A stretch of DNA of 64,000 nucleotides from Promethearchaeota archaeon (GTDB lineage: Archaea; Asgardarchaeota; Lokiarchaeia; Sigyniarchaeales; SOKP01). The stretch covers positions 39,524 to 103,523 of the forward strand of contig JAHLWS010000030.1 of NCBI GenBank assembly GCA_019057795.1, given 5' to 3'. Position 1 is the first letter of the stretch. Every line of letters starts with the position of its first letter. The notes below the pieces were generated by a model that had not been told where the DNA came from, made no database searches, and saw only the letters and a list, made by a program, of their open reading frames with translations. The translations under genes and the position numbers were made by a program. Positions 13,798 to 47,770 of this stretch are shown here, piece after piece.

Positions 13798-14838
13798 TTG
13801 ATTATGGATATACTCAATGATAAGATTATATTAATCACAGGGGGTTCTGGCACAATTGGAGAAAGATTGGTCATGCATATTCTTAAAAACAATTCTCCTA
13901 AGATGATTAGAATTTTCAGTCGAGATGAAACAAAACAATTATACTTAGAGAAGAAGTTAGAAGAATTTTCTGAAAAACTCAGATTTTTCATTGGAGATAT
14001 TAGAGATAAGGAAAGATTAAATAGAGCGATGGAAGATGTAAATATTGTTTTTCATTTAGCCGCATTAAAACATGTAGTTGCATGCGAATATAATCCATTT
14101 GAAGCAATAAAAACAAATGTTATTGGACTCCAAAATATGATTGAAATAAGTATTGAGAAGAATATTGAGAAATTTGTATTCACTAGCACAGATAAGGCAG
14201 CAACTCCTTCTAATACGATGGGAGTGACAAAACTCTTAGGAGAAAAATTAGTTTCAGCTGCAAACTATTATAAGGGTAATGCTCAAACAATATTTTATTC
14301 AGTTAGATTTGGAAATGTAATTGGGTCTAGAGGTTCTCTAATTCCATTAATTGAAAATCAGATAAAAAATGATTTGCCAATTACTATAACACACAAAGAT
14401 ATGACGAGATATATCATGATCACTGAAACAGCTCTTAAATTAATTCTCAAGACTTTAGATTTCGCACAAGGCGGTGAAATTTTTATCTTTAAGATGTATG
14501 CTGTTAGAATTATTGATTTAATTAAAGTTTTAGTCAAGAAGTTTTCTAAAAAATATAATAAAGTATGGGAGAAAGTTAAAATTAATGAAATTGGAATTTT
14601 TGCTGGAGAAAAATTATATGAGGAATTATTTTCAATTGAAGAATCAGAAAGAACTTATGAATTGAATAATTTATATATTATTTTTCCTCAAATAACAGAA
14701 ATTTATCAAGAAATTAACCTTGAATTATACCCAAATATTAAAAAATTTGATCCTATAAAACCTTTTAATTCGAAAGATGGCCCATTTTTGTCAGAGAAAG
14801 AAATTGAAGATTTTCTAATTAAAAATAAAATTATTTAA
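13798..14838 (+). CDS. UDP-GlcNAc 4,6-dehydratase family (Polysacc_synt_2; CapD/FnlA/PseB-like, Met-type triad)
   Basis: GGSGTIG, FSRDETKQ, AALKHV..CEYNPFEA, STDKA, NTMGVTK, VRFGNVIGSRGS, GEKLYEEL. Confidence 0.9.
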   Translation: MIMDILNDKIILITGGSGTIGERLVMHILKNNSPKMIRIFSRDETKQLYLEKKLEEFSEKLRFFIGDIRDKERLNRAMEDVNIVFHLAALKHVVACEYNPFEAIKTNVIGLQNMIEISIEKNIEKFVFTSTDKAATPSNTMGVTKLLGEKLVSAANYYKGNAQTIFYSVRFGNVIGSRGSLIPLIENQIKNDLPITITHKDMTRYIMITETALKLILKTLDFAQGGEIFIFKMYAVRIIDLIKVLVKKFSKKYNKVWEKVKINEIGIFAGEKLYEELFSIEESERTYELNNLYIIFPQITEIYQEINLELYPNIKKFDPIKPFNSKDGPFLSEKEIEDFLIKNKII

Positions 14839-14862
14839 GATTGTTTAATTTTTTTGATTAAA

Positions 14863-15861
14863 TTATTCAGATTTTTTATATCTTTTTTTTCCTCGATGAT
14901 GGATTATAGTATATCCCCCAAAATGTCTTTTAAATAGACTAATATCGATTTCTTTTTGGGATGGATGATTATAAGGTTGGTCAGAGAAATATTGATAACC
15001 TAATTCATAATATTTATATCTATTTTGCTTTAACCATTTGATCATATTCCATTGAATAGAATGAGAAATTGGGAGGTGTTCATAATCAGGATGGTTCGCA
15101 CTTACACCATAATAAGCTCCATCTTTATATAAAATTGCAAATATGCCACCAACAGGTTTTTTATCTAGGTATGCTAATATTATGGTAGCATTTCCTTTTA
15201 TTTTCCATTGATATTGTAAGGCCCAAGTTCTTTCCGATCTCGTCATTCTTCCAGCTGCTAATAAGTGAAGTTTTTTAAATTCCTTAAACAATTTATCATC
15301 TGTATTATAAGGAGAATCAACTACAAATTGAAACTGTTCCTCCCCTCGTTTTATTTCATTTCGATGGCTTTTTTTTATATTTCCCCAAAGAGTTTTATCA
15401 TCTATATCAAGAACAATAACTTGAGTATTTAATGAAATGTTTTCATATCCAAATTTCATTAAATAATTATATGTAAAAGGAGAAAGATGATTTTTGGCTA
15501 ATGTACTCAAATTCATTATGCATTCATCTATTCCGTATTCGGTTGCTATTGAATCAATTTTTGTAAAAATCTGTCCAATAACACTTTTAGAGAGCTTTTG
15601 TGATAAATGATTCCTTAAAGCTGGATTTGGACCAAAAGAGCCACTAAAAGAAAGTTTATTCTTTTCTCGAATTAAAGGACAAATTGCGACGATATCTTTA
15701 TTTCCATCTTCAATGTAAAAGGATAATAATTCAGAATCTTCTCCTGTATATTCTAATGTATAATCCATCCAATCTGAGGTATGCCAAAACCAGCATTCAT
15801 CTGATTCATAGCAAAATTTATTCCATCTGGGATCATCGAGAGTTAATTTTTTTATTTTCAT
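14863..15861 (-). CDS. FemAB-like / Acetyltransf_6 GNAT acyltransferase
   Basis: WFWHTSDW, LWGNIKKSHRNEIK, AYYGVSA, IQWNMIKWLK..YYELG, FKRHFGG. Confidence 0.78.
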   Translation of the reverse strand: MKIKKLTLDDPRWNKFCYESDECWFWHTSDWMDYTLEYTGEDSELLSFYIEDGNKDIVAICPLIREKNKLSFSGSFGPNPALRNHLSQKLSKSVIGQIFTKIDSIATEYGIDECIMNLSTLAKNHLSPFTYNYLMKFGYENISLNTQVIVLDIDDKTLWGNIKKSHRNEIKRGEEQFQFVVDSPYNTDDKLFKEFKKLHLLAAGRMTRSERTWALQYQWKIKGNATIILAYLDKKPVGGIFAILYKDGAYYGVSANHPDYEHLPISHSIQWNMIKWLKQNRYKYYELGYQYFSDQPYNHPSQKEIDISLFKRHFGGYTIIHHRGKKRYKKSE

Positions 15862-15967: not shown

Positions 15968-17428
15968 TTATTTAAGGTTATACTGCAGTAATGCTTTCCT
16001 TAATTCGTTTGCTGTTTCATCTGTTTTTTCTGCTATTTTAATTATAGGCCACATTTCTTCAGGTAATCTAACATAAAGTTCAAATGTTTTTTGAAGGCTC
16101 TCAACTTCTGATGGGGGCATTTTTGATAAAGAAAAAATTGAAACTTGTGAAACTGGAATTATCTTTCCGTTCTTATCATAAATATTTAAATTATACTTCA
16201 TACTTAATTCGGTAAGAGGATAAGGATATACAATATAATTGTTAGTAGAATCTACATTTAATTTTTTATTTAATCTAATAGTTTCAAAAACATTTTCTCT
16301 CGTTTCACTAGGAAGTCCTAACATATTAAAAGTAGATACTCTTATATCATGTTTTTTTAGCAATTCTATAGCTCTTATTATCATATCATTAGTCATATAC
16401 CGCTTCAGTTCTTCTTTACGAATATGTTCATTTCCTGATTCAATTCCAACAGATGCAGAAACTATACCCATCTCTTTTAATAATAAAATTTTTTCTTCAG
16501 TTACAGTTTCTGGACGTATCGAGCATCCAAAATTAATATTTAAGAGTTTTAAACCTTTAGCTAATTTTTTGAGATAATCAAGTTTGAATAATAATATTGA
16601 ATCATCAGCAAATTTAAACCAAGTAGCATTGAAATTCTCTTTCAATTCTTTTAATTGTTTAACCGTGGTTTCCGGAGATTGATATCGAAAATAGCGACCA
16701 CATTTTTTTAACTTCTCTCTTAAGGAATAATTAACACAATAAGTACAATTTTCAGGACAACCACGAGACATGATATAGAAGCTTCCATTATAAATCTTAC
16801 CCCTGTATGGTCGAAATAAATGGCGTTTATCAAATAAACCCCAATCAGGAGTGGGTAAATCATCCATATTAACAAATGGTCGAAGGTCATTAATCTTTAT
16901 TACACCATTCTCTTTATACCCCAGATTTTTTATACTTTTAAAATCCTTACCATTCTCTAATGCATCTAAAAGCTCAACTATTAACTCTTCCCCTTCTCCT
17001 ACACAAATAAAGTCAACAACTTCATGTTTTAAGGTTTCATAAGGAGAAATGGTAGGATGTACTCCACCAAAAATAGTTTTGCATGAGGGTTGATTTTTTT
17101 CAAGAAGTTCAATTATTCTGTCAAAATGTCCAGTCATTACAGATACTGCAAGGATGTCAGGTTTAAAAAGCATAATTTTTTGTTTAAATGCTTCTTCAAG
17201 AGTTATAAATGGGTCATCAGCTACTAAATCTTCTAAGGTATATTCTGTTGGAAGAAACTTACTTGATTCTTTTATTTCATCTTTATTCTGTTCCTTAGTC
17301 TTTATAAATGTAAAATCTAATACATCAACAATATGTCCATTTTGTTTTAGGATTGCTGAAAGTAGAGATATTCCAGTTGGGATCCCGATACTAAGATAAT
17401 CGTTTGGATGTATAAAAAGAACTCTCAT
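15968..17428 (-). CDS. Cobalamin-binding radical SAM protein
   Basis: N-terminal B12-binding region (GGVHPT, VGEGE), SRGCPENCTYC, GIESG, NMLGLPSET. Confidence 0.92.
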   Translation of the reverse strand: MRVLFIHPNDYLSIGIPTGISLLSAILKQNGHIVDVLDFTFIKTKEQNKDEIKESSKFLPTEYTLEDLVADDPFITLEEAFKQKIMLFKPDILAVSVMTGHFDRIIELLEKNQPSCKTIFGGVHPTISPYETLKHEVVDFICVGEGEELIVELLDALENGKDFKSIKNLGYKENGVIKINDLRPFVNMDDLPTPDWGLFDKRHLFRPYRGKIYNGSFYIMSRGCPENCTYCVNYSLREKLKKCGRYFRYQSPETTVKQLKELKENFNATWFKFADDSILLFKLDYLKKLAKGLKLLNINFGCSIRPETVTEEKILLLKEMGIVSASVGIESGNEHIRKEELKRYMTNDMIIRAIELLKKHDIRVSTFNMLGLPSETRENVFETIRLNKKLNVDSTNNYIVYPYPLTELSMKYNLNIYDKNGKIIPVSQVSIFSLSKMPPSEVESLQKTFELYVRLPEEMWPIIKIAEKTDETANELRKALLQYNLK

Positions 17429-17755: not shown

Positions 17756-18700
17756 ATGGTATTTTTAGTTACAGGTGGAGCAGGGTTCATAGGAAGGTGG
17801 GTAGTTAAAAATCTATTATTAAAAGAAAAAGAAGTTGTCGTTTTAGATAATTTAAGCAATGCGAGAAAAGAGAACTTAGCAGAATTTAGTGATAATTCTA
17901 ATTTATTAGAATTAATAATTGATAATATTATCAATAAAAAAATAGTTGAAAGCTTATTTGAAAAATATAAATTTTCTGTATGCTTACATCTTGCTGCTCA
18001 AATTAATGTTCAGGAGAGTTTAGATTTTCCTGAAAAAGCTTTTGAAAATAATGTTATTGGTACTTATAATATTCTTGAATCTGCTAGAAAATATAACACA
18101 AAAGTTGTTCTTATAGGAACATGTATGGCCTATGATTTAGCAGATTCAAACATAGCTATCTCTGAAACACATCCAGTCAAACCAGCGTCTCCATATGCGG
18201 GGTCCAAAGTTGCTGCAGAAGAAATAGCTATGTCATATTATTATGGCCTAAATTTACCTGTTGTAATTCTTAGACCTTTTAATACCTACGGTCCCTTTCA
18301 AAAGATAAATATGGAAGGGGGTGTGGTTTCAATTTTTATTAGTCGTAAGCTAAAAAATGAAAAATTACTTATTTATGGGGATGGAACTCAAACGAGAGAT
18401 TTATTATATGTTGAGGACTGTGCGGATTTCATTGTAAAAGCTGCTGAAAATGAAAATTGTATAGGAGAAATCATCAATGGTGGAATTGGAAAAGACATTT
18501 CAATTAACGACTTAGCTTTAATGATAGTAGGTGATAGGAGTCGAATTGAGCATGTTAAGCATCATCATCCGCAAAGTGAAATAATGAAATTAGTGTGCGA
18601 TAACCGAAAAGCAAAGAAATTATTAAAATGGGAACCATCAACTTTTCTTCAAGAAGGGATCTCAAAATTAGAAAAGTGGATTAGAGAGAACGAGTGGTAA
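17756..18700 (+). CDS. NAD-dependent nucleotide-sugar epimerase/dehydratase (LegB/RmlB-like)
   Basis: GGAGFIG, HLAAQINVQES, SPYAGSK, RPFNTYGP, GDGTQTRD. Confidence 0.88.
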   Translation: MVFLVTGGAGFIGRWVVKNLLLKEKEVVVLDNLSNARKENLAEFSDNSNLLELIIDNIINKKIVESLFEKYKFSVCLHLAAQINVQESLDFPEKAFENNVIGTYNILESARKYNTKVVLIGTCMAYDLADSNIAISETHPVKPASPYAGSKVAAEEIAMSYYYGLNLPVVILRPFNTYGPFQKINMEGGVVSIFISRKLKNEKLLIYGDGTQTRDLLYVEDCADFIVKAAENENCIGEIINGGIGKDISINDLALMIVGDRSRIEHVKHHHPQSEIMKLVCDNRKAKKLLKWEPSTFLQEGISKLEKWIRENEW

Positions 18701-18705
18701 AATAA

Positions 18706-19899
18706 GTGGAAAAACCTGCAATTGAAGGAGGAAAAAGACTAAGGGAAGAATTTCTTCCGTATGGAACTCAGTGGCTTGATGAGAATGAAATTAATGAAGT
18801 AGTTGATTCTTTGAAATCAAGCTGGATTACAACTGGACCAAAAATGACCCAATTTGAAGAGGACTTTAAAAAATTTAAAGAAGCTAAATATGCAATCGCT
18901 GTGAATTCTGGAACTGCCGCTTTACATATTTCAACTTCAAGCATCGATATAAATCCGGGAGATGAAGTAATTACTACTCCACTAACATTTGTAGCATCAG
19001 CAAATTGTGTCGTTTATAGAGGGGGCACACCTGTCTTTGCTGACATTAAAAAAGATACTTATAATATAGACCCTAATGAAATTAAGAAAAAAATCACATC
19101 TAAAACAAAAGCAATTATTCCAGTTCATTTTACTGGTCAGCCATGTGATATGGATGAGATTTTGGAAATTGCTGAAGAACATGAGTTATATGTCATTGAA
19201 GATGCCGCTCACGCTATAGACGCAGAATACAAGGGAAGAAAAATTGGCACTCTTGGTGATTTAACGATATTCAGTTTTCATCCAGTAAAAAATATTACTA
19301 CTGCTGAGGGGGGAATGGTTACTACAAATGATGACGATTTTTACGAGAAATTGTTAATGTTTAGAACTCATGGAATATCAAAAGATGCCCAAAAGAGATT
19401 CGGAAAATCTGGAGGCTATTATTATGATATGCAATATTTAGGTTATAGATATAATTTAAGCGAACTTCATGCTGCGCTTGGGATTTGTCAATTAAAAAAA
19501 TTAAAATCGTTTCAAAAACGAAGAAGGGAAATCGTAGAGATATATAATAAAGAACTTCAAGATTTTGATGAAATTATTATCCCATATAAGAAAGATAATG
19601 TAAAACATTCATGGCATTTATATATTATCCAATTAGAAATTGAAAAATTAAGAGTAGACAGAGATTATATCTTTAAAGCTTTAAGAGAAGAGAATATAGG
19701 TGTAAATGTCCATTATATTCCTGTGCATTATCATTCCTACTATCAAAATAAATTTGGTTTAAAAAAAGGTATATTACCAAATGTGGAATGGTTGTTTCCA
19801 AGAATATTAACAATTCCTTTATTTCCAAAAATGACCAATGATGATGTGTATGATGTTATTAATGCATTGGATAAGGTTATTACATATTATAGAAAATAA
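18706..19899 (+). CDS. DegT/DnrJ/EryC1 sugar aminotransferase (PseC/SpsC-like)
   Basis: ITTGPK, NSGTAALH, EDAAHA, SFHPVKNITTAEGG, GVNVHYIP. Confidence 0.92.
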   Translation: MEKPAIEGGKRLREEFLPYGTQWLDENEINEVVDSLKSSWITTGPKMTQFEEDFKKFKEAKYAIAVNSGTAALHISTSSIDINPGDEVITTPLTFVASANCVVYRGGTPVFADIKKDTYNIDPNEIKKKITSKTKAIIPVHFTGQPCDMDEILEIAEEHELYVIEDAAHAIDAEYKGRKIGTLGDLTIFSFHPVKNITTAEGGMVTTNDDDFYEKLLMFRTHGISKDAQKRFGKSGGYYYDMQYLGYRYNLSELHAALGICQLKKLKSFQKRRREIVEIYNKELQDFDEIIIPYKKDNVKHSWHLYIIQLEIEKLRVDRDYIFKALREENIGVNVHYIPVHYHSYYQNKFGLKKGILPNVEWLFPRILTIPLFPKMTNDDVYDVINALDKVITYYRK

Positions 19900-19962: not shown

Positions 19963-21411
19963 ATGAAGGTTTGCCTAATTAATCCACCCTTAAATATGGG
20001 TAGTAGAGCGTGGTATCCTATTGGAATCGGATATATCGCAGCTTATTTACTTAAAGATGGATTTGAAGTTGAAATCATCGATTGTATAGGAGATAATTTA
20101 TCCCGAGTAGAATTTAAAAAACGACTCGTTAATTGCAAAGCTGATGCGTATGGAATAGGGGGATTGATTATGGCGTTTAATAATGTTTTAGAAATTGCTA
20201 ATATGGTTAAAGAAACTTATCCAGATGCAATTATCTTTGCTGGAAACACAGTGGCATCTACAATCCCTGAGATATTGCTTTCTAATTCACCCATTCAAGT
20301 GGCGGTTATGTGGGAGGGGGAATATACAACAGTAAATCTAATGAATGCCTTAAAAGATGAAATATCTCTTAAAACTGTAAAGGGAATTATATTTAAAGAT
20401 AAAGACGGTAATATTATAAAAACACTAGAGCAAACAATTATTAAAGATTTGGATGAATTACCCTTTCCTGCATGGGATTTAATTCCAATGAAAAATTATA
20501 TGGAGAATATTAATTATAATTATCCCATTTCTTCAGTTCGAGGATGTCCCTATAATTGTACTTTTTGTTGTAAAACATTTCTTTTAAATAAAGTAAGAGC
20601 AAGATCTCCGCAACATATAATTAATGAAATAATTGAGGCAAAAAAGAGATTTAATATCAAAAAATTCTGTTTTTTTGATGATTTGTTTATCTATAATAGA
20701 AACAGAGTTATGGAATTTTGTGACTTAAAAATTAATACGCCTGAGATTAAAGAGATTCCATGGGAATGCTCTGCACGGGTTAATTTGATAACAGAAAAAA
20801 TGGTTAAAAAAATGGTTGAGGCAAAATGTGTTTGGATTGGATGTGGGTTTGAATCAGCTGATCAAGATGTTTTAAATTGCTACAATAAAGCAATTAAAGT
20901 AGATCAAATGCAAAATGCTATAAATATAATGAAAAAATACAATATTGAGGTATCTAAGGGGGGAACATTCATGATAGGTGCTCCAAATGAGACATTAAAG
21001 TCGATTAAAAAATCAGTGAAGTTTGCAAAGAAAAATAAGATTAAGTATTTACCTCATTTTACGACGCCTTATCCTGGAACAGCACTCTATAATTCGGCTA
21101 GGGAAAAAGGTTTAATCAAAGATGAATTAAAATTTGTAAAAAAAATTGCTAAGATTGGCAATACTAATTTTTTAACAATTAATTTAACAGAAGCTTTTAC
21201 AGACGAAGAATTAATTAGAATTAAAGAGAAAATGACATATTTGCCAACGGTTAAATTATATGTTTCTTTCTCTAGATTACTAAAAAGGATCCCATTCCTA
21301 ATCAAAAAAGCGATTTTAAAAGGTCCGCATCAAGCGTTGCTTTCCCTTAAAGGAATGTATCGATATAAACCAAATCTGAATCTTGAAAAATATTCTAATG
21401 AATGGTTTTAA
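19963..21411 (+). CDS. Cobalamin-binding radical SAM protein
   Basis: LINPP..YPIGIGYIAA, WEGE, VRGCPYNCTFC, GFESA, FMIGAPNET, PYPGT. Confidence 0.92.
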   Translation: MKVCLINPPLNMGSRAWYPIGIGYIAAYLLKDGFEVEIIDCIGDNLSRVEFKKRLVNCKADAYGIGGLIMAFNNVLEIANMVKETYPDAIIFAGNTVASTIPEILLSNSPIQVAVMWEGEYTTVNLMNALKDEISLKTVKGIIFKDKDGNIIKTLEQTIIKDLDELPFPAWDLIPMKNYMENINYNYPISSVRGCPYNCTFCCKTFLLNKVRARSPQHIINEIIEAKKRFNIKKFCFFDDLFIYNRNRVMEFCDLKINTPEIKEIPWECSARVNLITEKMVKKMVEAKCVWIGCGFESADQDVLNCYNKAIKVDQMQNAINIMKKYNIEVSKGGTFMIGAPNETLKSIKKSVKFAKKNKIKYLPHFTTPYPGTALYNSAREKGLIKDELKFVKKIAKIGNTNFLTINLTEAFTDEELIRIKEKMTYLPTVKLYVSFSRLLKRIPFLIKKAILKGPHQALLSLKGMYRYKPNLNLEKYSNEWF

Positions 21412-24572: not shown

Positions 24573-24640
24573 ATAGCTCCAAACCAGTTTAAACAGATTG
24601 TCATATTTTAATAATAAATATTCCATTAAAACTTTTGAAT

Positions 24641-34662: not shown

Positions 34663-34850
34663 TCATTTTTTCAAATATAATTATGCTGCTTTAATTTGTT
34701 TTCTATTTTGATTAATTTTAATTATTTCGGGTTTACTTTTTAGAAGTGTCATAATTTCTTTAAAGGAAAAAATTTTTCCTTCTTTACATAACTCATTAAA
34801 TATTTTTTTAAACAATTCAAAATCCTCGTGGTAATCAAGAGTTAATCTCC
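34663..34850 (-). pseudogene. 3' remnant of an spsF paralogue; inverted repeat of 37598-37785
   Basis: [47 protein letters not shown] versus [47 protein letters not shown]; about 21 mismatches in ~143 nt by hand count. Confidence 0.9.
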
Positions 34851-40600: not shown

Positions 40601-41119
40601 GTGTTTTTTATGTTTAATTTTAAAAGAGCGGGCAAAAATTTAAAAATCTTTGAATATGTAAAAATTGTAAAACCAGAAGTTATTGAAATAGGAGACTATT
40701 CCGAAATTGATGATTTTTCTTTCATTTATGGAGGTAAAGGTATAATAATTGGAAGATATGTCCATATTGCTCGTTTTGTTAGCATCATCGGAGGAGGGGA
40801 GCTTTATCTTGGAGATTATACAGTTTTAGCCGATGGGGTAAGAATTTTAACTGGGACAGATTCTTATCATGGAGGTGCTAGAATGTCAACATGTTTACCA
40901 ATTGAGCAGCGAAATGCTAAAATTTCATTTGTAAGAATCGAAAAGGACGCTTTTATAGGCACAAATTCTATTGTACATCCAGGAGTAATCATAGGAGAGG
41001 GTGCAATTATTGGAAGTAACAGTTTAGTTTTAAAAGATGTAAAACCTTGGACAATAAATGTCGGTAGTCCTTGTAAGGTTATAAAAAAACGTCCTAAAAT
41101 TAAATTTGAGGATATTTAA
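40601..41119 (+). CDS. Left-handed beta-helix (hexapeptide) acyltransferase
   Basis: IEIGDYSEID, IIIGRYVHI, AFIGTNSIVHPGVIIGEGAIIG, VGSPCK. Confidence 0.88.
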   Translation: MFFMFNFKRAGKNLKIFEYVKIVKPEVIEIGDYSEIDDFSFIYGGKGIIIGRYVHIARFVSIIGGGELYLGDYTVLADGVRILTGTDSYHGGARMSTCLPIEQRNAKISFVRIEKDAFIGTNSIVHPGVIIGEGAIIGSNSLVLKDVKPWTINVGSPCKVIKKRPKIKFEDI

Positions 41120-42279
41120 ACGTTATATGTTAATTTTTTTATTAATAGTTTTTTATTTTTTTCCAAATCTTCTAAAATTTTAACAATGCGCATAGATGCT
41201 TTTCCATCTCCATAAGGATTTTTCACATTTTGGCATATTTTCTTAAATTCTACTGAAATAGCTCTATTTATAGCATTTTTAACATCTGTATAATTTGGTG
41301 GTACATTAATTACATTTTCAGCGCTTTCTCTACCTTTATTTCTATCTCCAATATTTACTACAGGTAAATTAAAGACAGAGGATTCAATTAGTCCACTTGA
41401 TGTATTACCAACTAAAACATCTATAAATTTTAATAAGCTTAAGTATACAATTCTTTCTAAATTCCTATATATCCTAAAATTTTTAAAAGACTTATTAACT
41501 TCGATTTCTTTAATAATTAATTCATTTCCACGATCATTATTAGGATATATAATTATTGCCTGAAAGTTTAAATCTTTTAAGACTTGTAGAATTGTTCTCA
41601 TTTGATCTCCTGCCTTATCATATTCATTAATATAAGGATGTTGTACACAAAGTACAATTTTTTTTTCAATATCAAAATTAAATTTTTTACAAATTTCACG
41701 TTTGCTTAATAATTTTTCTTCATAGATCATATCTATACCTGGAGATCCAACCATATGTATCCGCCATTCCTCTTCACCCATTAATTTAATTCTTTGAGCA
41801 CTTTTGGGAGTTGTTGGAAAATGTATATGAGCAAATTTAGTAATTGAATGTCTAATTTGTTCATCTATTTGACCTTGAGATACGTTATCTCCCCCATGTA
41901 TATGAGCAATTACTTTTGATAATGTAGAAGCGGCAATTACTGCAGCTAAGGCTTCAAATCGATCCCCCAGAACTAGTATAATATCAGGATTTAATTCATA
42001 AAAACATTTTGTAAAATTAATTATAGCTTTACCTACTGCTTTTCCTAAACTCAATTCACTTTTTTCTGTTGGATCATACATATGCACGATTTTGGCGATC
42101 GTAAAATTATCCTTTTTTATGAATTCAATAGTATTCCCATATTCTTCTAATAAATGTATTCCTGTAACTATTAATGATATTTTTAATTTTGTTGATTTAC
42201 TTATCTTTTCTATTACAGGCTTAAGATAACCATAATCAGAACGGGCACCAGTGATAATACAAATATGGTTTTTTTTCAT
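41116..42279 (-). CDS. neuC: Hydrolysing NDP-GlcNAc/diNAcBac 2-epimerase (NeuC/LegG)
   Basis: TGARSDYG, LGDRFE, HIHGGD, IDEQIRHSITK, GNTSSG, NPYGDG; co-oriented with neuB. Confidence 0.92.
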   Translation of the reverse strand: MKKNHICIITGARSDYGYLKPVIEKISKSTKLKISLIVTGIHLLEEYGNTIEFIKKDNFTIAKIVHMYDPTEKSELSLGKAVGKAIINFTKCFYELNPDIILVLGDRFEALAAVIAASTLSKVIAHIHGGDNVSQGQIDEQIRHSITKFAHIHFPTTPKSAQRIKLMGEEEWRIHMVGSPGIDMIYEEKLLSKREICKKFNFDIEKKIVLCVQHPYINEYDKAGDQMRTILQVLKDLNFQAIIIYPNNDRGNELIIKEIEVNKSFKNFRIYRNLERIVYLSLLKFIDVLVGNTSSGLIESSVFNLPVVNIGDRNKGRESAENVINVPPNYTDVKNAINRAISVEFKKICQNVKNPYGDGKASMRIVKILEDLEKNKKLLIKKLTYNV

Positions 42280-43332
42280 TTATTCAATATCCTCCCATTT
42301 AATAATAGAATCGATAGGAATATTTTTTTTAACTTTTTTTCCAATTAATTCTTCAAAATATTTAGGAGAAATCCCCGAACCAGGTCTTTTTATGGAAATA
42401 TTTTTAGAAGTTAGGATATCTCCCTTTTTTAAATCTTTTATTGATACTATACTTTTTCTCGCTTTTTTAGCAATTTCTAGTTCAATTTTAGAGGGAAATT
42501 TTCTAAAATTTCCCAAAGCTTTTTCTAAATTTCGAATTCCATTTACCCATTCCTTAAGTTCGTCAGGATCCAAGGAAGCACTATGATCTGGACCTTCCAT
42601 ATTTTTGTCTAGTGTAAAATGCTTTTCGATGACTTTTACTCCTTTAGCAGCAGCTCCTATTGAAGCTTCAATGCCTAGAGAATGATCTGAAAAACCAATT
42701 AAAAATTTTGGAAACTCTTTTTTAAAAGTTTCAATTACATTTAAGTTAATTTCTTCATATTGAGCAGGATAATTAGTTGTACACTGAAAAATTAAAATTT
42801 CTTCAACTCGATTATTAATAATAAAATTCACCGATTCCTTCACCTCCTCTAAAGATGCCATCCCTGTTGATATTAAGATTGGTTTCTGTTTTGAACAAAT
42901 CAATTTTAATAATGGGAAATTATTCATATCACCAGATCCTATTTTATAAGCAGGAACATGTAAGAATTCTAATAATTCTACAGATTTATCGTCAAACGGA
43001 GTTGATAAAAAAATTAATCCCTTTTGTGCGCAATATGCTTTAATTTCCATAAAATTTTCTTTTGATAATTCATATCTCTTAAGCATATCATAAAAGTTTT
43101 CATTATTTTCAGTTTTAACTTTTTGATAATCTACTTTAGAAGTGGTTTTTAATATTAAACTATCAGTATTATAAGTTTGAAATTTTATGGCATCAACCTT
43201 AGCATTAGCAGCGATATCTATTAGTTTTTTAGCTAAATTAATATCTCCGTTATGATTCACACCTGCTTCTGCTATTAAAAATATAGGTGATTTAGAACTA
43301 ATTTCTTTATCATCAATTAATATCTTTTTCAT
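42280..43332 (-). CDS. neuB: NeuB/LegI-family nonulosonic acid synthase 2
   Basis: IAEAGVNHNGD, KFQTY, KIGSGD, QCTTNYP, GFSDHS, EKHFTLD, GPDH. Confidence 0.95.
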   Translation of the reverse strand: MKKILIDDKEISSKSPIFLIAEAGVNHNGDINLAKKLIDIAANAKVDAIKFQTYNTDSLILKTTSKVDYQKVKTENNENFYDMLKRYELSKENFMEIKAYCAQKGLIFLSTPFDDKSVELLEFLHVPAYKIGSGDMNNFPLLKLICSKQKPILISTGMASLEEVKESVNFIINNRVEEILIFQCTTNYPAQYEEINLNVIETFKKEFPKFLIGFSDHSLGIEASIGAAAKGVKVIEKHFTLDKNMEGPDHSASLDPDELKEWVNGIRNLEKALGNFRKFPSKIELEIAKKARKSIVSIKDLKKGDILTSKNISIKRPGSGISPKYFEELIGKKVKKNIPIDSIIKWEDIE

Positions 43333-43452: not shown

Positions 43453-44487
43453 ATGATAAAAACTATTAAAATTAAAGAGAAGATCATTGGAGAGGGATAT
43501 CCTACATTTTTAATTGCCGAAATGGCATGTGCACACCAAGGAGATGTTAAACAAGCTTGTGAATTAGTTGATGTTGCGATTAGAGCAAAAGCAGATGCTG
43601 TTCAAATTCAAGTGTATAAAAAAGAAATATATATGAGTCCTGTTTATGAAAGTTATGATTTAATTACTCGTTTAGAATTATCTCAAAGTGAGTGGTTACT
43701 AGTTATTAATAAAATTAAAAAGAATAATATCTTATTCTTTGCTGCGGGTTATGATGTTGATAGCGTCAAATTTTTGATTGAAAATGGTGTTGACGCATTT
43801 AAAATCCATTCTGCTGATATATCTAATCCTGAAGTTTTAAAAGAAGTTGTTAAGTCAAGGAAACCTATATTTTTAAGTTGTGGTGCCTCAAAAGTAGAAG
43901 AAATTAAGAAAGCAATTGATTCTTTGAGAAAAAATGGAGCAGAAGATGTTATATTAATGCATGGATATCAAGGATTTCCAACAAAAGTAGAAGATAATCA
44001 TTTAAATTATATAAAAACCTTAAGACGGTTGTTTGGTTTAAATGTAGGCTACTATGATCATGTAGATGGAGGGTCTATTTTAGCTAAAATAATTCCCATC
44101 ATGGCTATAGGATATGGAGCTCAGGTTATTGAGAAACATTTTATTTTATCTCGGGAAGAAAAAGGAATTGATTACGAGTCATCATTAAATACAGATGATT
44201 TTATTGAATTTGTTGACTGTGTTAGAAATGCTGAAAAGGCAATTGGACAAAAAAATATAAGAGATTTTACAGATAGTGAAATTAATTATCGGGCATATTG
44301 TAAAAAAAGTATTGTATTGAAAAATAATATTCCTAAAGGTACGAAAATCAGTAGAGAAGATGTCATGTTTGTAAGAAGCGATCCAGGAATTCCACCAGAT
44401 AAATTCAAGGATATATTAGGAAATATTGCTAAAAAGGACTTAAAAAAAAATAATAATTTAAAATACGATGATTTTTTAAATTATTAA
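43453..44487 (+). CDS. Divergent NeuB-family synthase 3
   Basis: IAEMACAHQGD, FKIHSAD, MHGYQGFPT, GYYDH, IEKHF, C-terminal SAF-like domain. Confidence 0.85.
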   Translation: MIKTIKIKEKIIGEGYPTFLIAEMACAHQGDVKQACELVDVAIRAKADAVQIQVYKKEIYMSPVYESYDLITRLELSQSEWLLVINKIKKNNILFFAAGYDVDSVKFLIENGVDAFKIHSADISNPEVLKEVVKSRKPIFLSCGASKVEEIKKAIDSLRKNGAEDVILMHGYQGFPTKVEDNHLNYIKTLRRLFGLNVGYYDHVDGGSILAKIIPIMAIGYGAQVIEKHFILSREEKGIDYESSLNTDDFIEFVDCVRNAEKAIGQKNIRDFTDSEINYRAYCKKSIVLKNNIPKGTKISREDVMFVRSDPGIPPDKFKDILGNIAKKDLKKNNNLKYDDFLNY

Positions 44488-44525: not shown

Positions 44526-45719
44526 ATGAAATTGAAAAATAAGACTACCTTTTTAACAAAAATCTTTGATTTTATTAAAAAATCCTACTCTCGTGTATCT
44601 AAATCTTATCTTTTATTTTTACATAGAAAGATGATTTTTAAAAAAAAATACATTTCTAGCATTAAGAATTATTTCGTAAAATCACTCGATGAAATAAATT
44701 ATTCTATTTTAACATCTAGTTATAAAATTCATTTTAATGAATCAGAAAGGCAGTTTTTAAGAGAATCAATTAGTTGTTCAAAAATTATAAAGCAAAATAT
44801 ATATAATGGGTTTAATCAGAGAGAGATATTTATATGTAAACTTAATGATGTTAAACTTTTTGGGATTTCCGGAGGAGTTTCATACCATAATAAAGTAATC
44901 GTAGAATCCTTTTCTAATTTGGGAAGGTTAAAAAGATCTATTTGTGTTGATAGTATTATATTTAAGCATAAACATTTGAAAGGGACTTTTTCTTCAATTA
45001 TTCATCTTAATTGGGCAAAAAATAATATATTTCATTGGTTAATTGAATGTCTTCCAAGATTATATGCTTTAACGAAATTAAATGAATCTAAAATTGTCTT
45101 AATAGTACATAAAGATATAACACAACTACAAATGGATACTTTAAGAATTATTTTAGATAAAAGGTTTAAATTCTTAAAAATTGGAACTAATGAAATCTGG
45201 AAATTAGAGAATTTTTACCTACCATCTTTTTGTAATGAGGATTGTTCTGGTTACATGCCGAAAATTTATTTAGATTATATTAAAAATAAGATAATTAAAG
45301 GCTATAATATTGAACCTCAAAATAAGAATTTAAGACTATATATCAGCCGTTATAAAGCGGGATATCGGTGTCTAAAGAATGAAGAGCAGTTCTTCGACTT
45401 GCTTAAGGAATTTAATTTTAAAAGAATTTATGCTGAGGATTTACCTTTCAAAAAGCAAGTTGAGTTGTTTAATTCTGCAAGTATTATTATCTCTATTCAT
45501 GGTGCGGGGCTCTCAAACATGATCTTCTCAGAGTTCCTTAAAGTTATTGAGATTTTTCCTCCGAATGATATAAAGACACATTACTTTATGTTATGTAAAG
45601 CTTTAGGTTTTGAACATTATTATATAATCGGATCAGATCTTAGTCCTAAAAATTCAAAATTCTTTATTGATTTGTCAATAATAGAAAATTTAATTAAAAA
45701 AGTTGTTGAATGTCCTTGA
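44526..45719 (+). CDS. GT61 / DUF563 family glycosyltransferase
   Basis: NIFHWLIECLPRL, LYISR..R.LKNE, QVELF, HGAGLSN, VIEIFP. Confidence 0.88.
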   Translation: MKLKNKTTFLTKIFDFIKKSYSRVSKSYLLFLHRKMIFKKKYISSIKNYFVKSLDEINYSILTSSYKIHFNESERQFLRESISCSKIIKQNIYNGFNQREIFICKLNDVKLFGISGGVSYHNKVIVESFSNLGRLKRSICVDSIIFKHKHLKGTFSSIIHLNWAKNNIFHWLIECLPRLYALTKLNESKIVLIVHKDITQLQMDTLRIILDKRFKFLKIGTNEIWKLENFYLPSFCNEDCSGYMPKIYLDYIKNKIIKGYNIEPQNKNLRLYISRYKAGYRCLKNEEQFFDLLKEFNFKRIYAEDLPFKKQVELFNSASIIISIHGAGLSNMIFSEFLKVIEIFPPNDIKTHYFMLCKALGFEHYYIIGSDLSPKNSKFFIDLSIIENLIKKVVECP

Positions 45720-45883
45720 TTTTAGCCTAACAACTAAAATATATTTGAATTAATAATCAATACATAATTATGAACATAAATATTAAAAAACAAGATATTG
45801 AAATTACCTTAAAATATTTATTATAAAAATTTAAAATTGAATATATAACTTGTAAACTTAAAAATTAAAAGAAATATCTTAAA

Positions 45884-47770
45884 ATGATTGAAAAAAAATT
45901 GAGGATATTAATCATCGATAATGTCTTTAATCATAGTTTTGAAATAGGGTTTAAAATTTCTTGGCGTTTATATAATTATCTTCAATTTTATAAAAGAATA
46001 AAATTAAAACGATTAATAGCAGGACTTTTAAAAAAATATAAGAATAATGTTAAAATTAAAGTTATTACTGCCAATGTTAAGAAATTTTATGTACATAAGG
46101 ATGTACAAATTGAGCTACTTTCAAATTATAGATTGAATCTTGATCGTGATATATATTTACAAATTCATGAAAAAATTAAACAGAATACTAAAGAAAATCT
46201 TGCTATTCTTTTAAGTAATTTAGAAAAGCTAAAAATCTTTCAAATAGAAAATATATCTATTGGAGAATCATTAGAGTTTCATTTAATTTGGTTTTTAAAT
46301 GAGATTTTTGGTGAATATGAATTAATTAAAAGGATTTTACAAGAAAAATATGATAAATTTATATTTATTAATCATAATTCTACTTTTGAAGATTTCTTTA
46401 AATTTTTAAATCAGAAATATCAAAACATAGAAATCTGTCGAGATTCATTTTTAAAAAAAATTAATAATCTTCCTAAATTAATAAAAATCAAATATTTTTT
46501 TGGAATCTTATTAAATTCTTTTATAAGAATTAATCTCCGAAATAGAAAAATATCTAATAGTAAAAAAAATAACCTTATTTTTGTCTGTAACTCAGATAAT
46601 CAATTTAGTAGCGTAAAAAATATTTATGATTACTATAAACAAAAACCAGAATTTAACAAATTTATATACCAAAATGTTGAAACAATACCTTTAACTAAAT
46701 TAAACAAATTAATGAAATTTCTTTTTTTGGTAAATAATTATTGGACGAAAGGATTAAATGTTATATCAAGGAATATGAAGTACGATTTATTAAAGCTTGA
46801 TAATGTCTTAAAAGAATTTTATAACTCAAAGTTATACTTTTTAAAATTCAATATATTTAATGTTTTACACAATTTTAACAACTTTATCAAAAATTATTCT
46901 CCTTTAATCGTTTTTTTAGCTGATGAAATGAAAGTTGATAGCCGTATATACGCTAAACATTGTAAGAATAAAAATATCCCTACTATTTACGTTCCCCATG
47001 CTGCTTTTCCAATATATGATGAAGTTATAACTAAAAGAGATTTTACATATTTAATGGTTCCTGGAGAAATTGATAAAAAGTATTTGGTGGAAACTGGAGA
47101 AAATATTAATAAAATTATTGTAACAGGACGACCTCGTTATGAAAAATTTAATAAAAAAGCGATTCCAAGGTTAGAATATGTAAAAGATATGATTGATGGA
47201 AGGTTGTTTAAGTTTGAGCCCGATAAATTCACTATATTATTTACTACTAGTCCAATTGATTATAAATCTAGAAAAATGTTATTAGAAGGTGTTATTAATT
47301 CAATAAAAGAATTAAACCTAATCAATAATTTGATAATAAAATTACACCCTCGTGAAGATGGCGTATGGTATAAGCAAGAATTAGAAGCATTAAATGTAAA
47401 TCCTATAATTGTAAAAGATTATGACATTTTAGAACTCATATCATCAAGTGACTTATTAATTTCACGTGTATCGACAACAATTCTAGAAGCATTAATGATA
47501 GGTACTCCTATAATTCTATTAGATTTTATAAATTCAAAATTTTATTTATCAGGTACCTATATTTTTACTAAAGATAAGAATTTAATAACTGTTAAATTCC
47601 AGAATGAGTTAAAGGATAAAATTAATGAATTATTTAGAAATAAGGATTTTTATAATAATTATAAAGAAATCATAAAAAAGTTAGCTAATGGTTATATATA
47701 TAATGATAAAGATAGAAGTTCACTAGATATAATCGTAAATTTAATAAGTCAGATTTTACCATATATTTAG
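45884..47770 (+). CDS. Large GT-B protein (CDP-glycerol glycerophosphotransferase/ulosonate-transferase-like)
   Basis: YVPHA, IIVTGRPRYE, IIKLHPRE, STTILEALMIGTP. Confidence 0.65.
   Translation: MIEKKLRILIIDNVFNHSFEIGFKISWRLYNYLQFYKRIKLKRLIAGLLKKYKNNVKIKVITANVKKFYVHKDVQIELLSNYRLNLDRDIYLQIHEKIKQNTKENLAILLSNLEKLKIFQIENISIGESLEFHLIWFLNEIFGEYELIKRILQEKYDKFIFINHNSTFEDFFKFLNQKYQNIEICRDSFLKKINNLPKLIKIKYFFGILLNSFIRINLRNRKISNSKKNNLIFVCNSDNQFSSVKNIYDYYKQKPEFNKFIYQNVETIPLTKLNKLMKFLFLVNNYWTKGLNVISRNMKYDLLKLDNVLKEFYNSKLYFLKFNIFNVLHNFNNFIKNYSPLIVFLADEMKVDSRIYAKHCKNKNIPTIYVPHAAFPIYDEVITKRDFTYLMVPGEIDKKYLVETGENINKIIVTGRPRYEKFNKKAIPRLEYVKDMIDGRLFKFEPDKFTILFTTSPIDYKSRKMLLEGVINSIKELNLINNLIIKLHPREDGVWYKQELEALNVNPIIVKDYDILELISSSDLLISRVSTTILEALMIGTPIILLDFINSKFYLSGTYIFTKDKNLITVKFQNELKDKINELFRNKDFYNNYKEIIKKLANGYIYNDKDRSSLDIIVNLISQILPYI

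What the first reader, a model, noticed from the sequence alone, without database searches (positions are those of the whole stretch)
13798..47770. Three-fold parallel nonulosonic (sialic-like) acid machinery in one probable Asgard archaeal cluster
Seen: three NeuB-family synthases (22695, 42280, 43453), three intact SpsF-type cytidylyltransferases (23799, 25577, 37045) plus a remnant fourth, and three GT-B proteins with K-x-H-P motifs (26518, 28262, 45884). Also present are NeuC, two DegT aminotransferases, dehydratases, acyltransferases, an AKR and a class-III aminotransferase. Established: NeuB plus a CMP-transferase plus an HP-motif GT-B is the core for making and displaying nonulosonates. 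Inference: the organism makes three chemically distinct sialic-like sugars for its surface glycan. In an Asgard archaeon this would bear on the origin of eukaryotic sialylation.
Basis: partly seen in the sequence, partly recalled or inferred. Interest (0 to 1): 0.8.

Follow-up and report, generated by a model that had tools for sequence, protein, structure and literature searches.

The report
Three sialic-like sugar pathways, Asgard archaeon
A Loki-type Asgard archaeon carries a surface-sugar gene island with three anciently separated enzymes for making nine-carbon, sialic-acid-like sugars, but the machinery looks like ordinary, patchily distributed prokaryotic glycan diversity and not like a forerunner of eukaryotic sialylation.

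Summary
The window holds three NeuB-family synthases (31-43% identical), three SpsF-type cytidylyltransferases plus a 3' remnant, and three GT-B proteins with a K-x-H-P motif. It also holds NeuC, two DegT aminotransferases, dehydratases, an AKR and a class-III aminotransferase.

The contig is Asgard. An IleRS on it is 94% identical to those of Promethearchaeota MAGs, and the genome has actin, ESCRT-II and Snf7 genes. A relative in another genus (G177) has the same island inside a 912-kb contig.

- **NeuB_a:** sits in a Bacillus-type (Pen/Pal/PseC) pseudaminic-like module and is sister to PseI references (100/97).
- **NeuB_b:** passes the NeuB/LegI model cut-off and is paired with NeuC.
- **NeuB_c:** belongs to a deep separate clade. 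It keeps the catalytic and metal residues but has clade-wide pocket changes (K53Q, S213Y and others). It lies head-to-head with NeuB_b in three assemblies (window, G177, L062).

At least two different sugars are well supported. Three are plausible but unproven.

The eukaryote angle is not supported. The trio was found in 2 of 301 Asgard genomes sampled. The activators and transferases are bacterial-type, and no GT29 was detected.

This scan has noted nonulosonate loci in other probable Asgard genomes.

The parts
13798..14838 (+). Pen/PseB-like UDP-GlcNAc dehydratase (Polysacc_synt_2), module A
   Evidence: Pfam 324 bits. TIGR03589 PseB 321 bits, below its cut-off. 42% identical to Priestia Pen and 41% to Klebsiella PseB.
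14863..15861 (-). FemAB-like GNAT acyltransferase (tailoring; absent from the G177 module)
   Evidence: Pfam Acetyltransf_6/FemAB. TIGR04421, 88 bits. No orthologue in the G177 island.
15968..17428 (-). B12-binding radical SAM enzyme 1 (tailoring)
   Evidence: Pfam Radical_SAM plus B12-binding. Only sub-threshold NCBIfam hits.
17756..18700 (+). Pal-like SDR (second dehydratase of the Bacillus-type Pse route)
   Evidence: 57% identical to the Priestia gene between Pen and pseC. 72% to G177.
18706..19899 (+). PseC-type aminotransferase
   Evidence: TIGR03588 456 bits, above the 423.5 cut-off. 56% to Priestia PseC.
19963..21411 (+). B12-binding radical SAM enzyme 2 (tailoring)
   Evidence: Pfam; NCBIfam hits sub-threshold.
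21451..21792 (+). Conserved 113-aa ORF of unknown function
   Evidence: No Pfam hit even at E 5. 55% identical orthologue at the same place in G177.
21918..22691 (-). Xylose-isomerase-like TIM-barrel metalloenzyme, always beside NeuB_a. Candidate for a missing Pse step (sugar release or epimerisation).
   Evidence: Model pLDDT 96.6. Best PDB folds are D-tagatose 3-epimerase-like and endonuclease IV. Invariant E/H/D metal ligands in 70 homologues. Adjacent to NeuB_a in G000, G177 and G292.
22695..23753 (-). NeuB_a, PseI-like nonulosonate synthase
   Evidence: Pfam NeuB plus SAF. 390 and 339.7 bits, just under the NeuB and PseI cut-offs. Sister to context-labelled PseI references, 100/97. Catalytic residues intact.
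23799..24626 (-). CT_a, SpsF-type cytidylyltransferase
   Evidence: Pfam CTP_transf_3. 68% to G177. No BLAST hit to PseF/NeuA-type references.
24641..25558 (-). Aldo/keto reductase
   Evidence: Pfam. 40% identical to the AKR inside the Priestia Pse cluster.
25577..26329 (-). CT_b, SpsF-type cytidylyltransferase
   Evidence: Pfam. PDB 6oew 'cytidylyltransferase', E 7e-43.
26518..28251 (+). GT-B_a, KpsC/KpsS-like HP-motif transferase (first canonical start at 26725)
   Evidence: Pfam Capsule_synth. KpsC 6mgd alignment with QxxxD and HP. N-terminal extension conserved in G177.
28262..29881 (-). GT-B_b, HP-motif GT-B-like protein
   Evidence: Moderate model; Foldseek hits are GT-B enzymes, including KpsC 6mgb. 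Lies within about 7 kb of NeuB genes in G292 and G032, and in the same island in G177, about 13 kb from the nearest NeuB.
30021..30857 (-). Methyltransferase-like protein
   Evidence: Weak Pfam Methyltransf_23. Syntenic in G177.
31178..32488 (-). Class-III (HemL-like) aminotransferase. In G177 it lies between NeuB_a and CT_a.
   Evidence: Pfam. 76% to G177, at 511507-512814.
33487..34533 (-). GT4 glycosyltransferase
   Evidence: Pfam. Syntenic in G177.
34663..34850 (-). Start-less remnant of the 3' end of a CT_c-like gene
   Evidence: Its translation matches the CT_c C-terminus.
35923..36873 (-). GT2 glycosyltransferase
   Evidence: Pfam. Syntenic in G177, L062 and L063.
37045..37785 (+). CT_c, SpsF-type cytidylyltransferase
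   Evidence: Pfam. 75% to G177.
37979..39148 (+). DegT-family aminotransferase 2 (no orthologue in G177)
   Evidence: Pfam. DesI/PseC/LegC models all below their cut-offs. Only 28-33% matches in G177.
39181..40581 (+). CBS-domain plus SDR dehydratase/epimerase fusion
   Evidence: Pfam CBS plus Epimerase. Weak LegB/RmlB/GalE scores.
40601..41119 (+). Hexapeptide acetyltransferase, closer to O-acetyltransferases (WcaF/WbbJ) than to NeuD/PglD
   Evidence: 81% to G177 and 71% in L062.
41116..42279 (-). NeuC/LegG-type hydrolysing 2-epimerase
   Evidence: TIGR03568 418 bits, above the 235.9 cut-off.
42280..43332 (-). NeuB_b, NeuB/LegI-type synthase
   Evidence: TIGR03569 435 bits, above the 399.65 cut-off. 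Own clade, 98/99. D at the E134 position.
43453..44487 (+). NeuB_c, divergent synthase subfamily, head-to-head with NeuB_b
   Evidence: Deep clade, 100/100. Keeps E25, K129, S132, H215, E234, H236, D247 and R314. Clade-wide N29A, K53Q, C182G, Q at the N184 position, S213Y and G131H.
44526..45719 (+). GT61-family glycosyltransferase, follows NeuB_c in four assemblies
   Evidence: Pfam. Synteny in G177, L063 and L064.
45884..47770 (+). GT-B_c, HP-motif, TagF/KpsS-like
   Evidence: Weak Pfam hits. BLAST E 1e-14 to the TagF-like protein of the Priestia Pse cluster. 48% orthologue in L063.

Best explanation
This is a chromosomal but accessory surface-glycan island of a Loki-type (Promethearchaeota) Asgard archaeon. 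It encodes three separate lineages of nonulosonate synthase, three SpsF-type CMP-activating enzymes and three HP-motif GT-B candidate transferases. It most likely makes two, and probably three, different CMP-activated nine-carbon sugars for a cell-surface glycan.

**Module A (13798-26329, plus the aminotransferase at 31178).** This is a Bacillus-type pseudaminic-like route:
- Pen-like and Pal-like dehydratases, then PseC, then unknown N-acylation and sugar-release steps, then NeuB_a, then CT_a or CT_b.
- Candidates for the unknown steps are the 113-aa ORF, the FemAB-like GNAT and the TIM-barrel enzyme.
- Extra tailoring comes from the AKR, the class-III aminotransferase and two B12 radical SAM enzymes.

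**Module B (37045-43332).** NeuC releases and 2-epimerises a UDP-sugar, NeuB_b condenses it with PEP, and CT_c activates the product. The product is either Neu5Ac or a legionaminic-type acid.

**Module C (43453-47770).** NeuB_c has an intact catalytic core but a remodelled substrate pocket. It lies on the same strand as, and directly upstream of, a GT61 enzyme and a TagF-like GT-B protein. It is inferred to make a third sugar, probably a diamino type.

**Shown:** gene content, homology, clade placement, residue conservation and synteny.

**Inferred:** the substrates, the products, which CT and which transferase serve which sugar, and that the sugars reach the surface.
For: **Asgard origin.**
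- Archaeal 16S.
- Actin at 442 bits, two Snf7 genes and ESCRT-II.
- The IleRS on the same contig is 94% identical to those of Promethearchaeota MAGs.
- G177 has the orthologous island at 500-580 kb of a 912,750-bp contig that also carries the IleRS.

**Three distinct synthases.**
- 31-43% pairwise identity.
- Three clades with 98-100 bootstrap support.
- Each clade has tens of homologues at 60-99% identity.
- Catalytic and metal residues are invariant in all three.

**Module A is Pse-like.**
- PseC scores above the curated cut-off.
- The order Pen-Pal-PseC-[SpsF-like CT]-AKR matches a Priestia plasmid cluster that continues with pseG, pseH and pseI, at 40-57% identity.
- NeuB_a is sister to the PseI references, 100/97.

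**Module B.** NeuB_b and NeuC both score above their curated cut-offs.

**Module C.**
- The c-type substitutions are fixed across 69 Asgard-clade sequences, and most of them recur in 38 more distant sequences, the few named ones bacterial.
- The arrangement Hexapep/NeuC/NeuB_b <-> NeuB_c recurs in G177 and L062, and NeuB_c-GT61 recurs in G177, L063 and L064.

**Transferases.** All three have K-x-H-P. They show a KpsC alignment, GT-B fold matches or TagF-like similarity.
Against: - No product has been measured.
- Module A has no recognisable PseG, PseH or PseF.
- NeuB_a misses both curated cut-offs by a little.
- NeuB_b does not group with the two LegI-by-context references.
- The hexapeptide transferase looks O-acetyltransferase-like.
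- DegT2 and the CBS-SDR have no orthologues in G177. So whether NeuB_b makes Neu5Ac or a Leg-type acid is open.
- NeuB_c has no cytidylyltransferase of its own beside it. It shares NeuC with NeuB_b, so b and c could serve one pathway.
- The GT-B_b model is only moderate (pLDDT 65.6; TM 0.2-0.3).
- The island contains decay: a CT remnant, and possibly a chimeric ORF at 32511.
Confidence: 0.6

Rival explanations
1. There are only two sugars. NeuB_b and NeuB_c are a functional pair, either a heterodimer of this domain-swapped enzyme family or two isozymes in one NeuC-fed pathway. The island would then make one Pse-like and one Neu/Leg-like acid.
For: - The b and c genes lie head-to-head, 120-137 bp apart, in the window, G177 and L062.
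- Hit lists for b and c share contig lengths in more than 20 cases.
- There is only one NeuC and one adjacent CT (CT_c) for both.
- R314, which in NeuB reaches into the partner's active site, is kept in both.
Against: - Both keep full catalytic sets, so neither looks like a dead partner.
- b-type orthologues occur without c-type in G104, G219 and G301.
- In G177 a second c-type copy sits in its own dehydratase-aminotransferase-NeuB_c-GT61 unit, away from NeuB_b.
- Three CTs are conserved in both genomes.
Confidence: 0.25
2. The island is partly decayed. One or more modules are non-functional, for example module A, which lacks PseG/PseH. Fewer sugars are made than the gene count suggests.
For: - No PseG, PseH or PseF homologue.
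- A CT remnant at 34663-34850.
- No canonical start for GT-B_a.
- An in-frame stop in one c-type copy of G177.
Against: - All the listed genes except the CT remnant are open, and the module A genes that have G177 orthologues are 54-82% identical to them.
- NeuB_a's clade is under clear constraint: of the 23 scored sites all but one (the T183 position) are conserved or nearly so in 73 sequences.
- The TIM-barrel and 113-aa ORFs sit exactly where the missing steps would be, in G177; G292 keeps the TIM barrel there.
Confidence: 0.1
3. The locus descends from the machinery that gave rise to eukaryotic sialylation.
For: - The host is an Asgard archaeon.
- NeuB_b and NeuB_c carry Asp at the E134 position, the state reported for archaeal and eukaryotic synthases (PMC8208679).
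Against: - Distribution is patchy: the trio in 2 of 301 genomes, and c-type in 2 of 135 genomes of the family.
- The composition is an outlier.
- Asp at E134 is also seen in 29% of environmental bacterial NeuB.
- The activators and transferases are not of the CMAS/GT29 kind.
- PMC5811610 derives GT29 from bacteria.
Confidence: 0.04
4. The contig is bacterial contamination in the bin.
For: - Bin contamination is estimated at 7.5%.
- The island is a tetranucleotide outlier.
- Module A resembles a Bacillus-type cluster.
Against: - An Asgard IleRS and an E2-like gene are on the same contig.
- The first 20 kb has genome-typical composition.
- The orthologous island is embedded in a 912-kb Asgard contig.
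- The nearest homologues of all three synthases that carry a name are labelled Asgard MAGs.
Confidence: 0.02

Closest known systems
Campylobacter jejuni: three NeuB paralogues (NeuB1 for Neu5Ac, NeuB2/LegI, NeuB3/PseI) making three nonulosonates in one cell (own knowledge of the literature; not tested here)
   Same: One genome holds three diverged NeuB-family synthases, each with its own activating enzyme. One is fed by a NeuC-type epimerase and one by a PseC-type aminotransferase.
   Different: - Here all three are in one island.
- The activators are SpsF-type, not NeuA/PseF-type.
- There are no Maf-type transferases.
- One synthase belongs to a clade with a changed pocket.
- The host is an archaeon.
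Bacillus thuringiensis / Priestia-type CMP-pseudaminic acid pathway (Pen, Pal, Pam...; Li et al. 2015 and Delvaux et al. 2018 as cited in PMC8987622; Priestia plasmid NZ_CP129010.1)
   Same: - The gene order Polysacc_synt_2 dehydratase, second SDR, PseC is the same.
- An SpsF-like CT and an AKR are in the cluster.
- Identities are 40-57%.
   Different: - The Asgard module lacks pseG and pseH.
- It has instead a TIM-barrel enzyme and a 113-aa ORF.
- It has two CTs, a class-III aminotransferase, two B12 radical SAM enzymes and a FemAB-like GNAT.
Bacillus subtilis sps legionaminic acid pathway (SpsM, C, D, G, E, F; PMC7439481)
   Same: - It uses an SpsE-type synthase; SpsE is the best PDB match of NeuB_a and NeuB_b.
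- It uses an SpsF-type cytidylyltransferase.
- A TagB-like HP-motif protein is the suspected transferase.
   Different: - The product there is Leg.
- There is a single synthase.
- The sugar-release step uses SpsG.
Halorubrum sp. PV6 legionaminic acid pathway, the studied archaeal case (PMC6137143), and the Haladaptatus plasmid cluster NZ_CP111040.1
   Same: An archaeal NeuB plus NeuC plus DegT plus Polysacc_synt_2 dehydratase cluster. NeuC is 39% and the synthase 42% identical to the window's.
   Different: - The haloarchaeal cluster has one synthase and a NeuD-type acetyltransferase.
- It does not group with the Asgard b-type clade.
KpsC/KpsS retaining beta-Kdo transferases (PDB 6mgb/6mgd) and TagB-domain Pse/Leg transferases proposed in Tannerella forsythia (Tomek et al. 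2017, cited in PMC7439481)
   Same: GT-B architecture with an HP motif, and QxxxD in GT-B_a.
   Different: - No Kdo genes are in the window.
- Sequence similarity is marginal.
- Donor and acceptor are unknown.

Membership tests
NeuB family (PEP-dependent nonulosonate synthases, PF03102 + SAF) | NeuB TIM-barrel domain plus a C-terminal SAF/AFP-like domain | tested here: met
   All three proteins hit both Pfam domains.
NeuB family (PEP-dependent nonulosonate synthases, PF03102 + SAF) | Catalytic E25/E234, position 134 acidic, metal ligands H215/H236, R314 from the SAF domain (N. meningitidis numbering) | tested here: met
   All are kept in a, b and c. Position 134 is E in a and D in b and c. H215/H236 as metal ligands is from my own knowledge of Gunawan et al. 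2005.
NeuB family (PEP-dependent nonulosonate synthases, PF03102 + SAF) | Canonical pocket residues K53, N29, C182 and S213 | tested here: not met
   Met for a and b. For NeuB_c and its whole clade they are Q, A, G and Y. NeuB_c is therefore a family member by fold and catalytic core, but not a canonical one.
PseI (pseudaminic acid synthase, TIGR03586) | Score above the curated cut-off of 340.25 bits | tested here: not met
   NeuB_a scores 339.7, NeuB_b 296 and NeuB_c 209. NeuB_a misses by 0.5 bit.
PseI (pseudaminic acid synthase, TIGR03586) | Groups with synthases from complete pseBCFGI / pseGHI clusters | tested here: met
   The NeuB_a clade is sister to the Klebsiella and Priestia PseI, 100/97. 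The references are labelled by gene context, not by assay.
Pseudaminic acid pathway | Inverting 4,6-dehydration (PseB, or Pen plus Pal) and a PseC aminotransferase | tested here: met
   PseC is above its cut-off. Pen-like and Pal-like are 42% and 57% identical to the Priestia genes. Stereochemistry is not testable here.
Pseudaminic acid pathway | PseH N-acetyltransferase, PseG UDP-sugar hydrolase and PseF cytidylyltransferase | tested here: not met
   No BLAST hit at E 1e-6 to PseG, PseH or PseF references. SpsF-type CTs, a TIM barrel and small ORFs are present instead.
NeuB/LegI (TIGR03569) with NeuC/LegG (TIGR03568) | Scores above the curated cut-offs, with the two genes adjacent | tested here: met
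   NeuB_b scores 435.4 against a cut-off of 399.65. NeuC scores 417.7 against 235.9. The two genes abut.
Legionaminic acid pathway (LegB, C, H, G, I, F) | LegB/LegC-type dehydratase and aminotransferase and a NeuD/PglD-type N-acetyltransferase | tested here: inconclusive
   DegT2 and the CBS-SDR score far below the LegC/LegB cut-offs. The hexapeptide enzyme resembles O-acetyltransferases. These two genes are not conserved in G177.
Eukaryotic sialylation (NANS, CMAS, GT29) | GT29 sialyltransferase | tested here: inconclusive
   No PF00777 match in the genome, but no control genome rang either.
Eukaryotic sialylation (NANS, CMAS, GT29) | The synthase groups with eukaryotic NANS | not testable with these tools
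KpsC/KpsS-type (Capsule_synth) GT-B transferases | QxxxD and HP motifs in a GT-B fold | tested here: met
   Met for GT-B_a only: Pfam E 3e-16 and a 6mgd alignment with both motifs. GT-B_b and GT-B_c have HP but no aligned QxxxD.
Asgard archaea (host assignment) | Archaeal rRNA plus eukaryotic signature proteins, and a housekeeping gene on the same contig that matches Asgard genomes | tested here: met

The most novel reading that the evidence does not exclude
The c-type NeuB clade keeps its catalytic core but has K53Q, N29A, C182G and S213Y, and it is followed by a GT61 enzyme in four of the five assemblies that could be read (in L062 a GT2 follows). It may be a new class of ulosonate synthase that makes a sugar not yet described. 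Together with a D134 b-type enzyme that may make true Neu5Ac, this would mean that some Loki-type Asgard archaea display three different sialic-like sugars, one of them new to chemistry.
Probability: 0.2. Interest if true: 0.7.

Novelty: new variant of a known kind. Interest (0 to 1): 0.45.

Why it matters
Little is known about the cell surface of Asgard archaea, and the library search found no paper on nonulosonic acids in them. About a quarter of sampled Asgard species genomes carry a NeuB gene. Two carry a conserved island with three synthase lineages. This gives concrete targets for glycomics of enrichment cultures.

The c-type synthase and the TIM-barrel enzyme that stands where PseG and PseH are missing are testable candidates for new sugar chemistry. 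On the eukaryote question the result is mostly cautionary. The machinery looks like prokaryotic, exchangeable surface-glycan diversity, so it should not be cited as an ancestor of sialylation without a proper tree.

Tried and rejected
Contexts of most metagenomic homologues could therefore not be read. Co-occurrence of b- and c-type on the same contigs rests partly on matching contig lengths.
- **Plasmid search with NeuB_c** gave nothing above 33% identity, so there is no annotated close relative.
- **Relaxed Pfam (E up to 5)** on 21451, 21918, 28262, 32511 and 34970 gave nothing usable.
Nothing was laid. There is thus no read-level check of contiguity and no check of the DNA holders listed.
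- **RNA evidence:** no RNA holder was listed. This says nothing about expression.
- **Reference sequences:** no experimentally characterised NeuB, LegI or PseI, and no eukaryotic NANS, could be brought in as a sequence. PDB matches are printed only. The tree therefore uses references labelled by gene context.
- **GT29 search:** no control genome rang, so the blank is weak.
- **A bacterial contig** was considered and rejected.
- **Recent duplication** was considered and rejected.
- **Identity of closed genome G032:** I suspected it was the cultured strain MK-D1. Its length (4,361,485 bp) does not fit my recollection of that genome, so I dropped the idea.

Full report
**What is there**

ORF listing and Pfam/NCBIfam scans show that the whole 64-kb window is a glycan-biosynthesis island. 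Inside 13798-47770 lie:
- three NeuB-family synthases: NeuB_a at 22695-23753(-), NeuB_b at 42280-43332(-) and NeuB_c at 43453-44487(+);
- three CTP_transf_3 cytidylyltransferases: CT_a at 23799, CT_b at 25577 and CT_c at 37045;
- a start-less remnant of a fourth cytidylyltransferase at 34663-34850;
- three large proteins with I-K-x-H-P motifs at 26518/26725, 28262 and 45884.

These are the only NeuB-family genes in the 4.95-Mb genome. Pairwise identity is 31-43% among the synthases and 30-42% among the cytidylyltransferases. They are not recent duplicates.

**Whose DNA it is**

The genome has an archaeal 16S rRNA. It has an actin scoring 442 bits, two Snf7 genes, and an ESCRT-II gene next to one of them.

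The window is the right-hand 64 kb of contig C30. The left end of C30 encodes:
- an IleRS that is 94% identical to those of Promethearchaeota MAGs and 74-80% identical to many others;
- a protein with an E2-like UQ_con domain.

The first 20 kb of the contig has genome-typical tetranucleotide usage. The island is a low-GC outlier, like a few other stretches of the genome.

Genome G177 belongs to the same family but another genus. It carries an orthologous island at 500-580 kb of a 912,750-bp contig, and that contig also holds its IleRS at about 610 kb. The contig is therefore Asgard, and the island sits at a conserved chromosomal place.

**Module A**

G177 has, in this order:
- a Pen-like dehydratase (74% identical to the window's);
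- a Pal-like SDR (72%);
- PseC (82%);
- a 113-aa ORF (55%);
- a 257-aa ORF (63%);
- NeuB_a (80%);
- a class-III aminotransferase (76%);
- CT_a (68%);
- an AKR (64%);
- CT_b (61%);
- GT-B_a (54%).

In the window the same set is interrupted by a FemAB-like GNAT and two B12 radical SAM genes. The aminotransferase lies apart at 31178.

PseC passes the curated TIGR03588 cut-off. A Priestia plasmid has the order Polysacc_synt_2 dehydratase, second SDR, pseC, an SpsF-like CT across the record origin, AKR, SDR, pseG, pseH, pseI. Identities to the window's proteins are 42%, 57%, 56%, 22-32% (three CTs) and 40%. This is the Pen/Pal type of CMP-pseudaminic acid route described for Bacillus thuringiensis (references in PMC8987622).

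In a maximum-likelihood tree the NeuB_a clade is sister to PseI from complete Klebsiella and Priestia pse clusters, with 100% bootstrap and 97% SH-aLRT.

No PseG, PseH or PseF homologue is present. The 257-aa ORF folds with pLDDT 96.6 into a xylose-isomerase-like TIM barrel with invariant metal ligands. It is nearest to a tagatose-3-epimerase-like protein and to endonuclease IV. It lies beside NeuB_a in G000, G177 and G292. I infer that it fills a missing step, either sugar release or an epimerisation. This is not shown.

**Modules B and C**

NeuB_b (TIGR03569, 435 bits) and NeuC (TIGR03568, 418 bits) both pass their curated cut-offs, and the two genes abut. NeuB_c starts 120 bp from NeuB_b on the other strand. 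It leads GT61 and GT-B_c.

The arrangement hexapeptide transferase / NeuC / NeuB_b <-> NeuB_c recurs in G177 and in metagenome contig L062. The arrangement NeuB_c-GT61 recurs in G177, L063 and L064. In L063 GT-B_c follows on the same strand; in G177 it lies upstream on the other strand.

CT_c, DegT2, the CBS-SDR and the hexapeptide transferase form one tight plus-strand unit in the window. However:
- DegT2 and the CBS-SDR have no orthologues in G177;
- the hexapeptide enzyme resembles O-acetyltransferases more than NeuD/PglD.

So NeuB_b could make Neu5Ac (the NeuC/NeuB/CT logic) or a legionaminic-type acid. The two LegI-by-context references, from Rhizobium WL3 and Haladaptatus, do not group with it.

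In G177 a second c-type copy sits in a unit of dehydratase, aminotransferase, NeuB_c and GT61. This hints that c-type enzymes use a 4-amino-6-deoxy sugar.

**The divergent synthase**

I numbered NeuB_c through its printed alignment to N. meningitidis NeuB.

It keeps E25, Q55, K129, S132, S154, H215, E234, H236, D247 and R314.

It has these changes:
- N29A;
- K53Q;
- G131H;
- E134D;
- C182G;
- Q at the N184 position;
- Y186F;
- S213Y.

Most of these changes are fixed or nearly fixed in all 69 sequences of its Asgard clade, and most of them recur in 38 more distant relatives. The few of those relatives that carry a name are labelled Bacteroidota or Pseudomonadota. The clade is separated from all other NeuB sequences sampled by a long branch with 100/100 support.

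It is therefore a constrained, old subfamily with a remodelled pocket, not a decaying copy. Its substrate is unknown.

**Candidate transferases**

- **GT-B_a** matches Pfam Capsule_synth. It aligns to KpsC with the QxxxD and HP motifs in register.
- **GT-B_b** has no Pfam hit. A four-sequence alignment gave a moderate model (pLDDT 65.6). Its 231 significant Foldseek matches, as far as listed, are nearly all GT-B enzymes and include KpsC, though TM-scores are low. Its orthologues lie within about 7 kb of NeuB genes in G292 and G032, and in the same island in G177, about 13 kb from the nearest NeuB.
- **GT-B_c** is similar to the TagF-like proteins of the Priestia Pse cluster. TagB-domain proteins with HP motifs have been proposed as Pse/Leg transferases (PMC7439481).

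Which sugar each one transfers is inference.

**Distribution**

In a sample of 301 species genomes of the phylum:
- 76 have some NeuB homologue;
- a-type orthologues (77% identity or more) were found in G177 and G292;
- b-type orthologues (64% or more) were found in G177, G104, G219 and G301;
- c-type was found only in G177, and in no other of 135 genomes of the family.

In a 24-genome sample of the genus, eight have a NeuB match over the family cut-off, and none other has three.

The protein database nevertheless holds tens of clusters of each type at 60-99% identity. Low-GC islands may often be left out of bins; that is my inference.

Earlier notes of this scan describe nonulosonate loci in several other probable Asgard genomes. 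I did not check those.

**Comparison and verdict**

The closest functional analogue is Campylobacter jejuni, with three NeuB paralogues for three sugars (own knowledge). The closest genetic analogue of module A is the Bacillus/Priestia Pen-Pal pathway.

Archaeal nonulosonates are known from Halorubrum and Methanobrevibacter, and an earlier survey found complete pathways in few archaea (PMC6137143). I found no paper on Asgard nonulosonates.

On the eukaryote link:
- the distribution is patchy;
- the composition is an outlier;
- the activators are SpsF-type, with no BLAST match to NeuA/PseF-type references;
- the transferases are GT-B proteins, not GT29 (weak);
- published work derives GT29 from bacteria (PMC5811610).

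Asp at position 134 in b and c is shared with eukaryotic NANS, but also with 29% of environmental bacterial NeuB (PMC8208679).

My verdict:
- At least two products are well supported.
- Three products are plausible. I put the odds at about 0.6.
- The eukaryote-origin reading is unsupported.

**Limits**

No characterised or eukaryotic reference sequences could be used.

Noticed in passing
window 26512-26724: The frame of GT-B_a is open for 69 codons upstream of its first ATG/GTG/TTG. These residues are conserved in the G177 orthologue. The gene probably starts at a non-canonical codon (ATT at 26518), or the start is otherwise unusual.
   Followed up: partly
G177:C10:567070-568098 (L061): The second c-type NeuB copy of G177 is 83% identical to NeuB_c. 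It has one in-frame stop exactly at the Tyr of the GIDY motif. This could be a fresh pseudogene, a sequencing error or recoding.
   Followed up: partly
window 32511-33152: A 213-aa ORF with no Pfam family. Not examined here.
   Followed up: no
window 49435-52616: Two divergently oriented sulfatase-family genes lie directly after the nonulosonate region, inside the glycan island. This may point to sulfated glycans or their turnover.
   Followed up: no
window 8822-9448 and 2119-3420: The UDP-galactopyranose mutase (GLF) domain ORF is only 208 aa and lacks the N-terminal FAD-binding part. A separate 433-aa NAD_binding_8 protein lies 5 kb away. The gene may be split or truncated.
   Followed up: no
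L011 (G000:C30) 3482-5257 and 6678-7628: Between the IleRS and the start of the glycan island lie a 591-aa protein with an E2-like UQ_con domain and an AbiEii-type toxin gene.
   Followed up: no
window 41116-45719: The run index lists DNA runs from cold-seep and marine-sediment metagenomes of six studies other than the probable source study. They hold 0.26-0.60 of the sampled words of this stretch.
   Followed up: no
L081-L082 (G032:C1:3600001-3640000): A closed 4.36-Mb genome of the same order has two NeuB-family genes, a NeuC, a PseC-like gene and a GT-B_b orthologue within 30 kb. If this organism is in culture, it would be the place to look for nonulosonates.
   Followed up: partly
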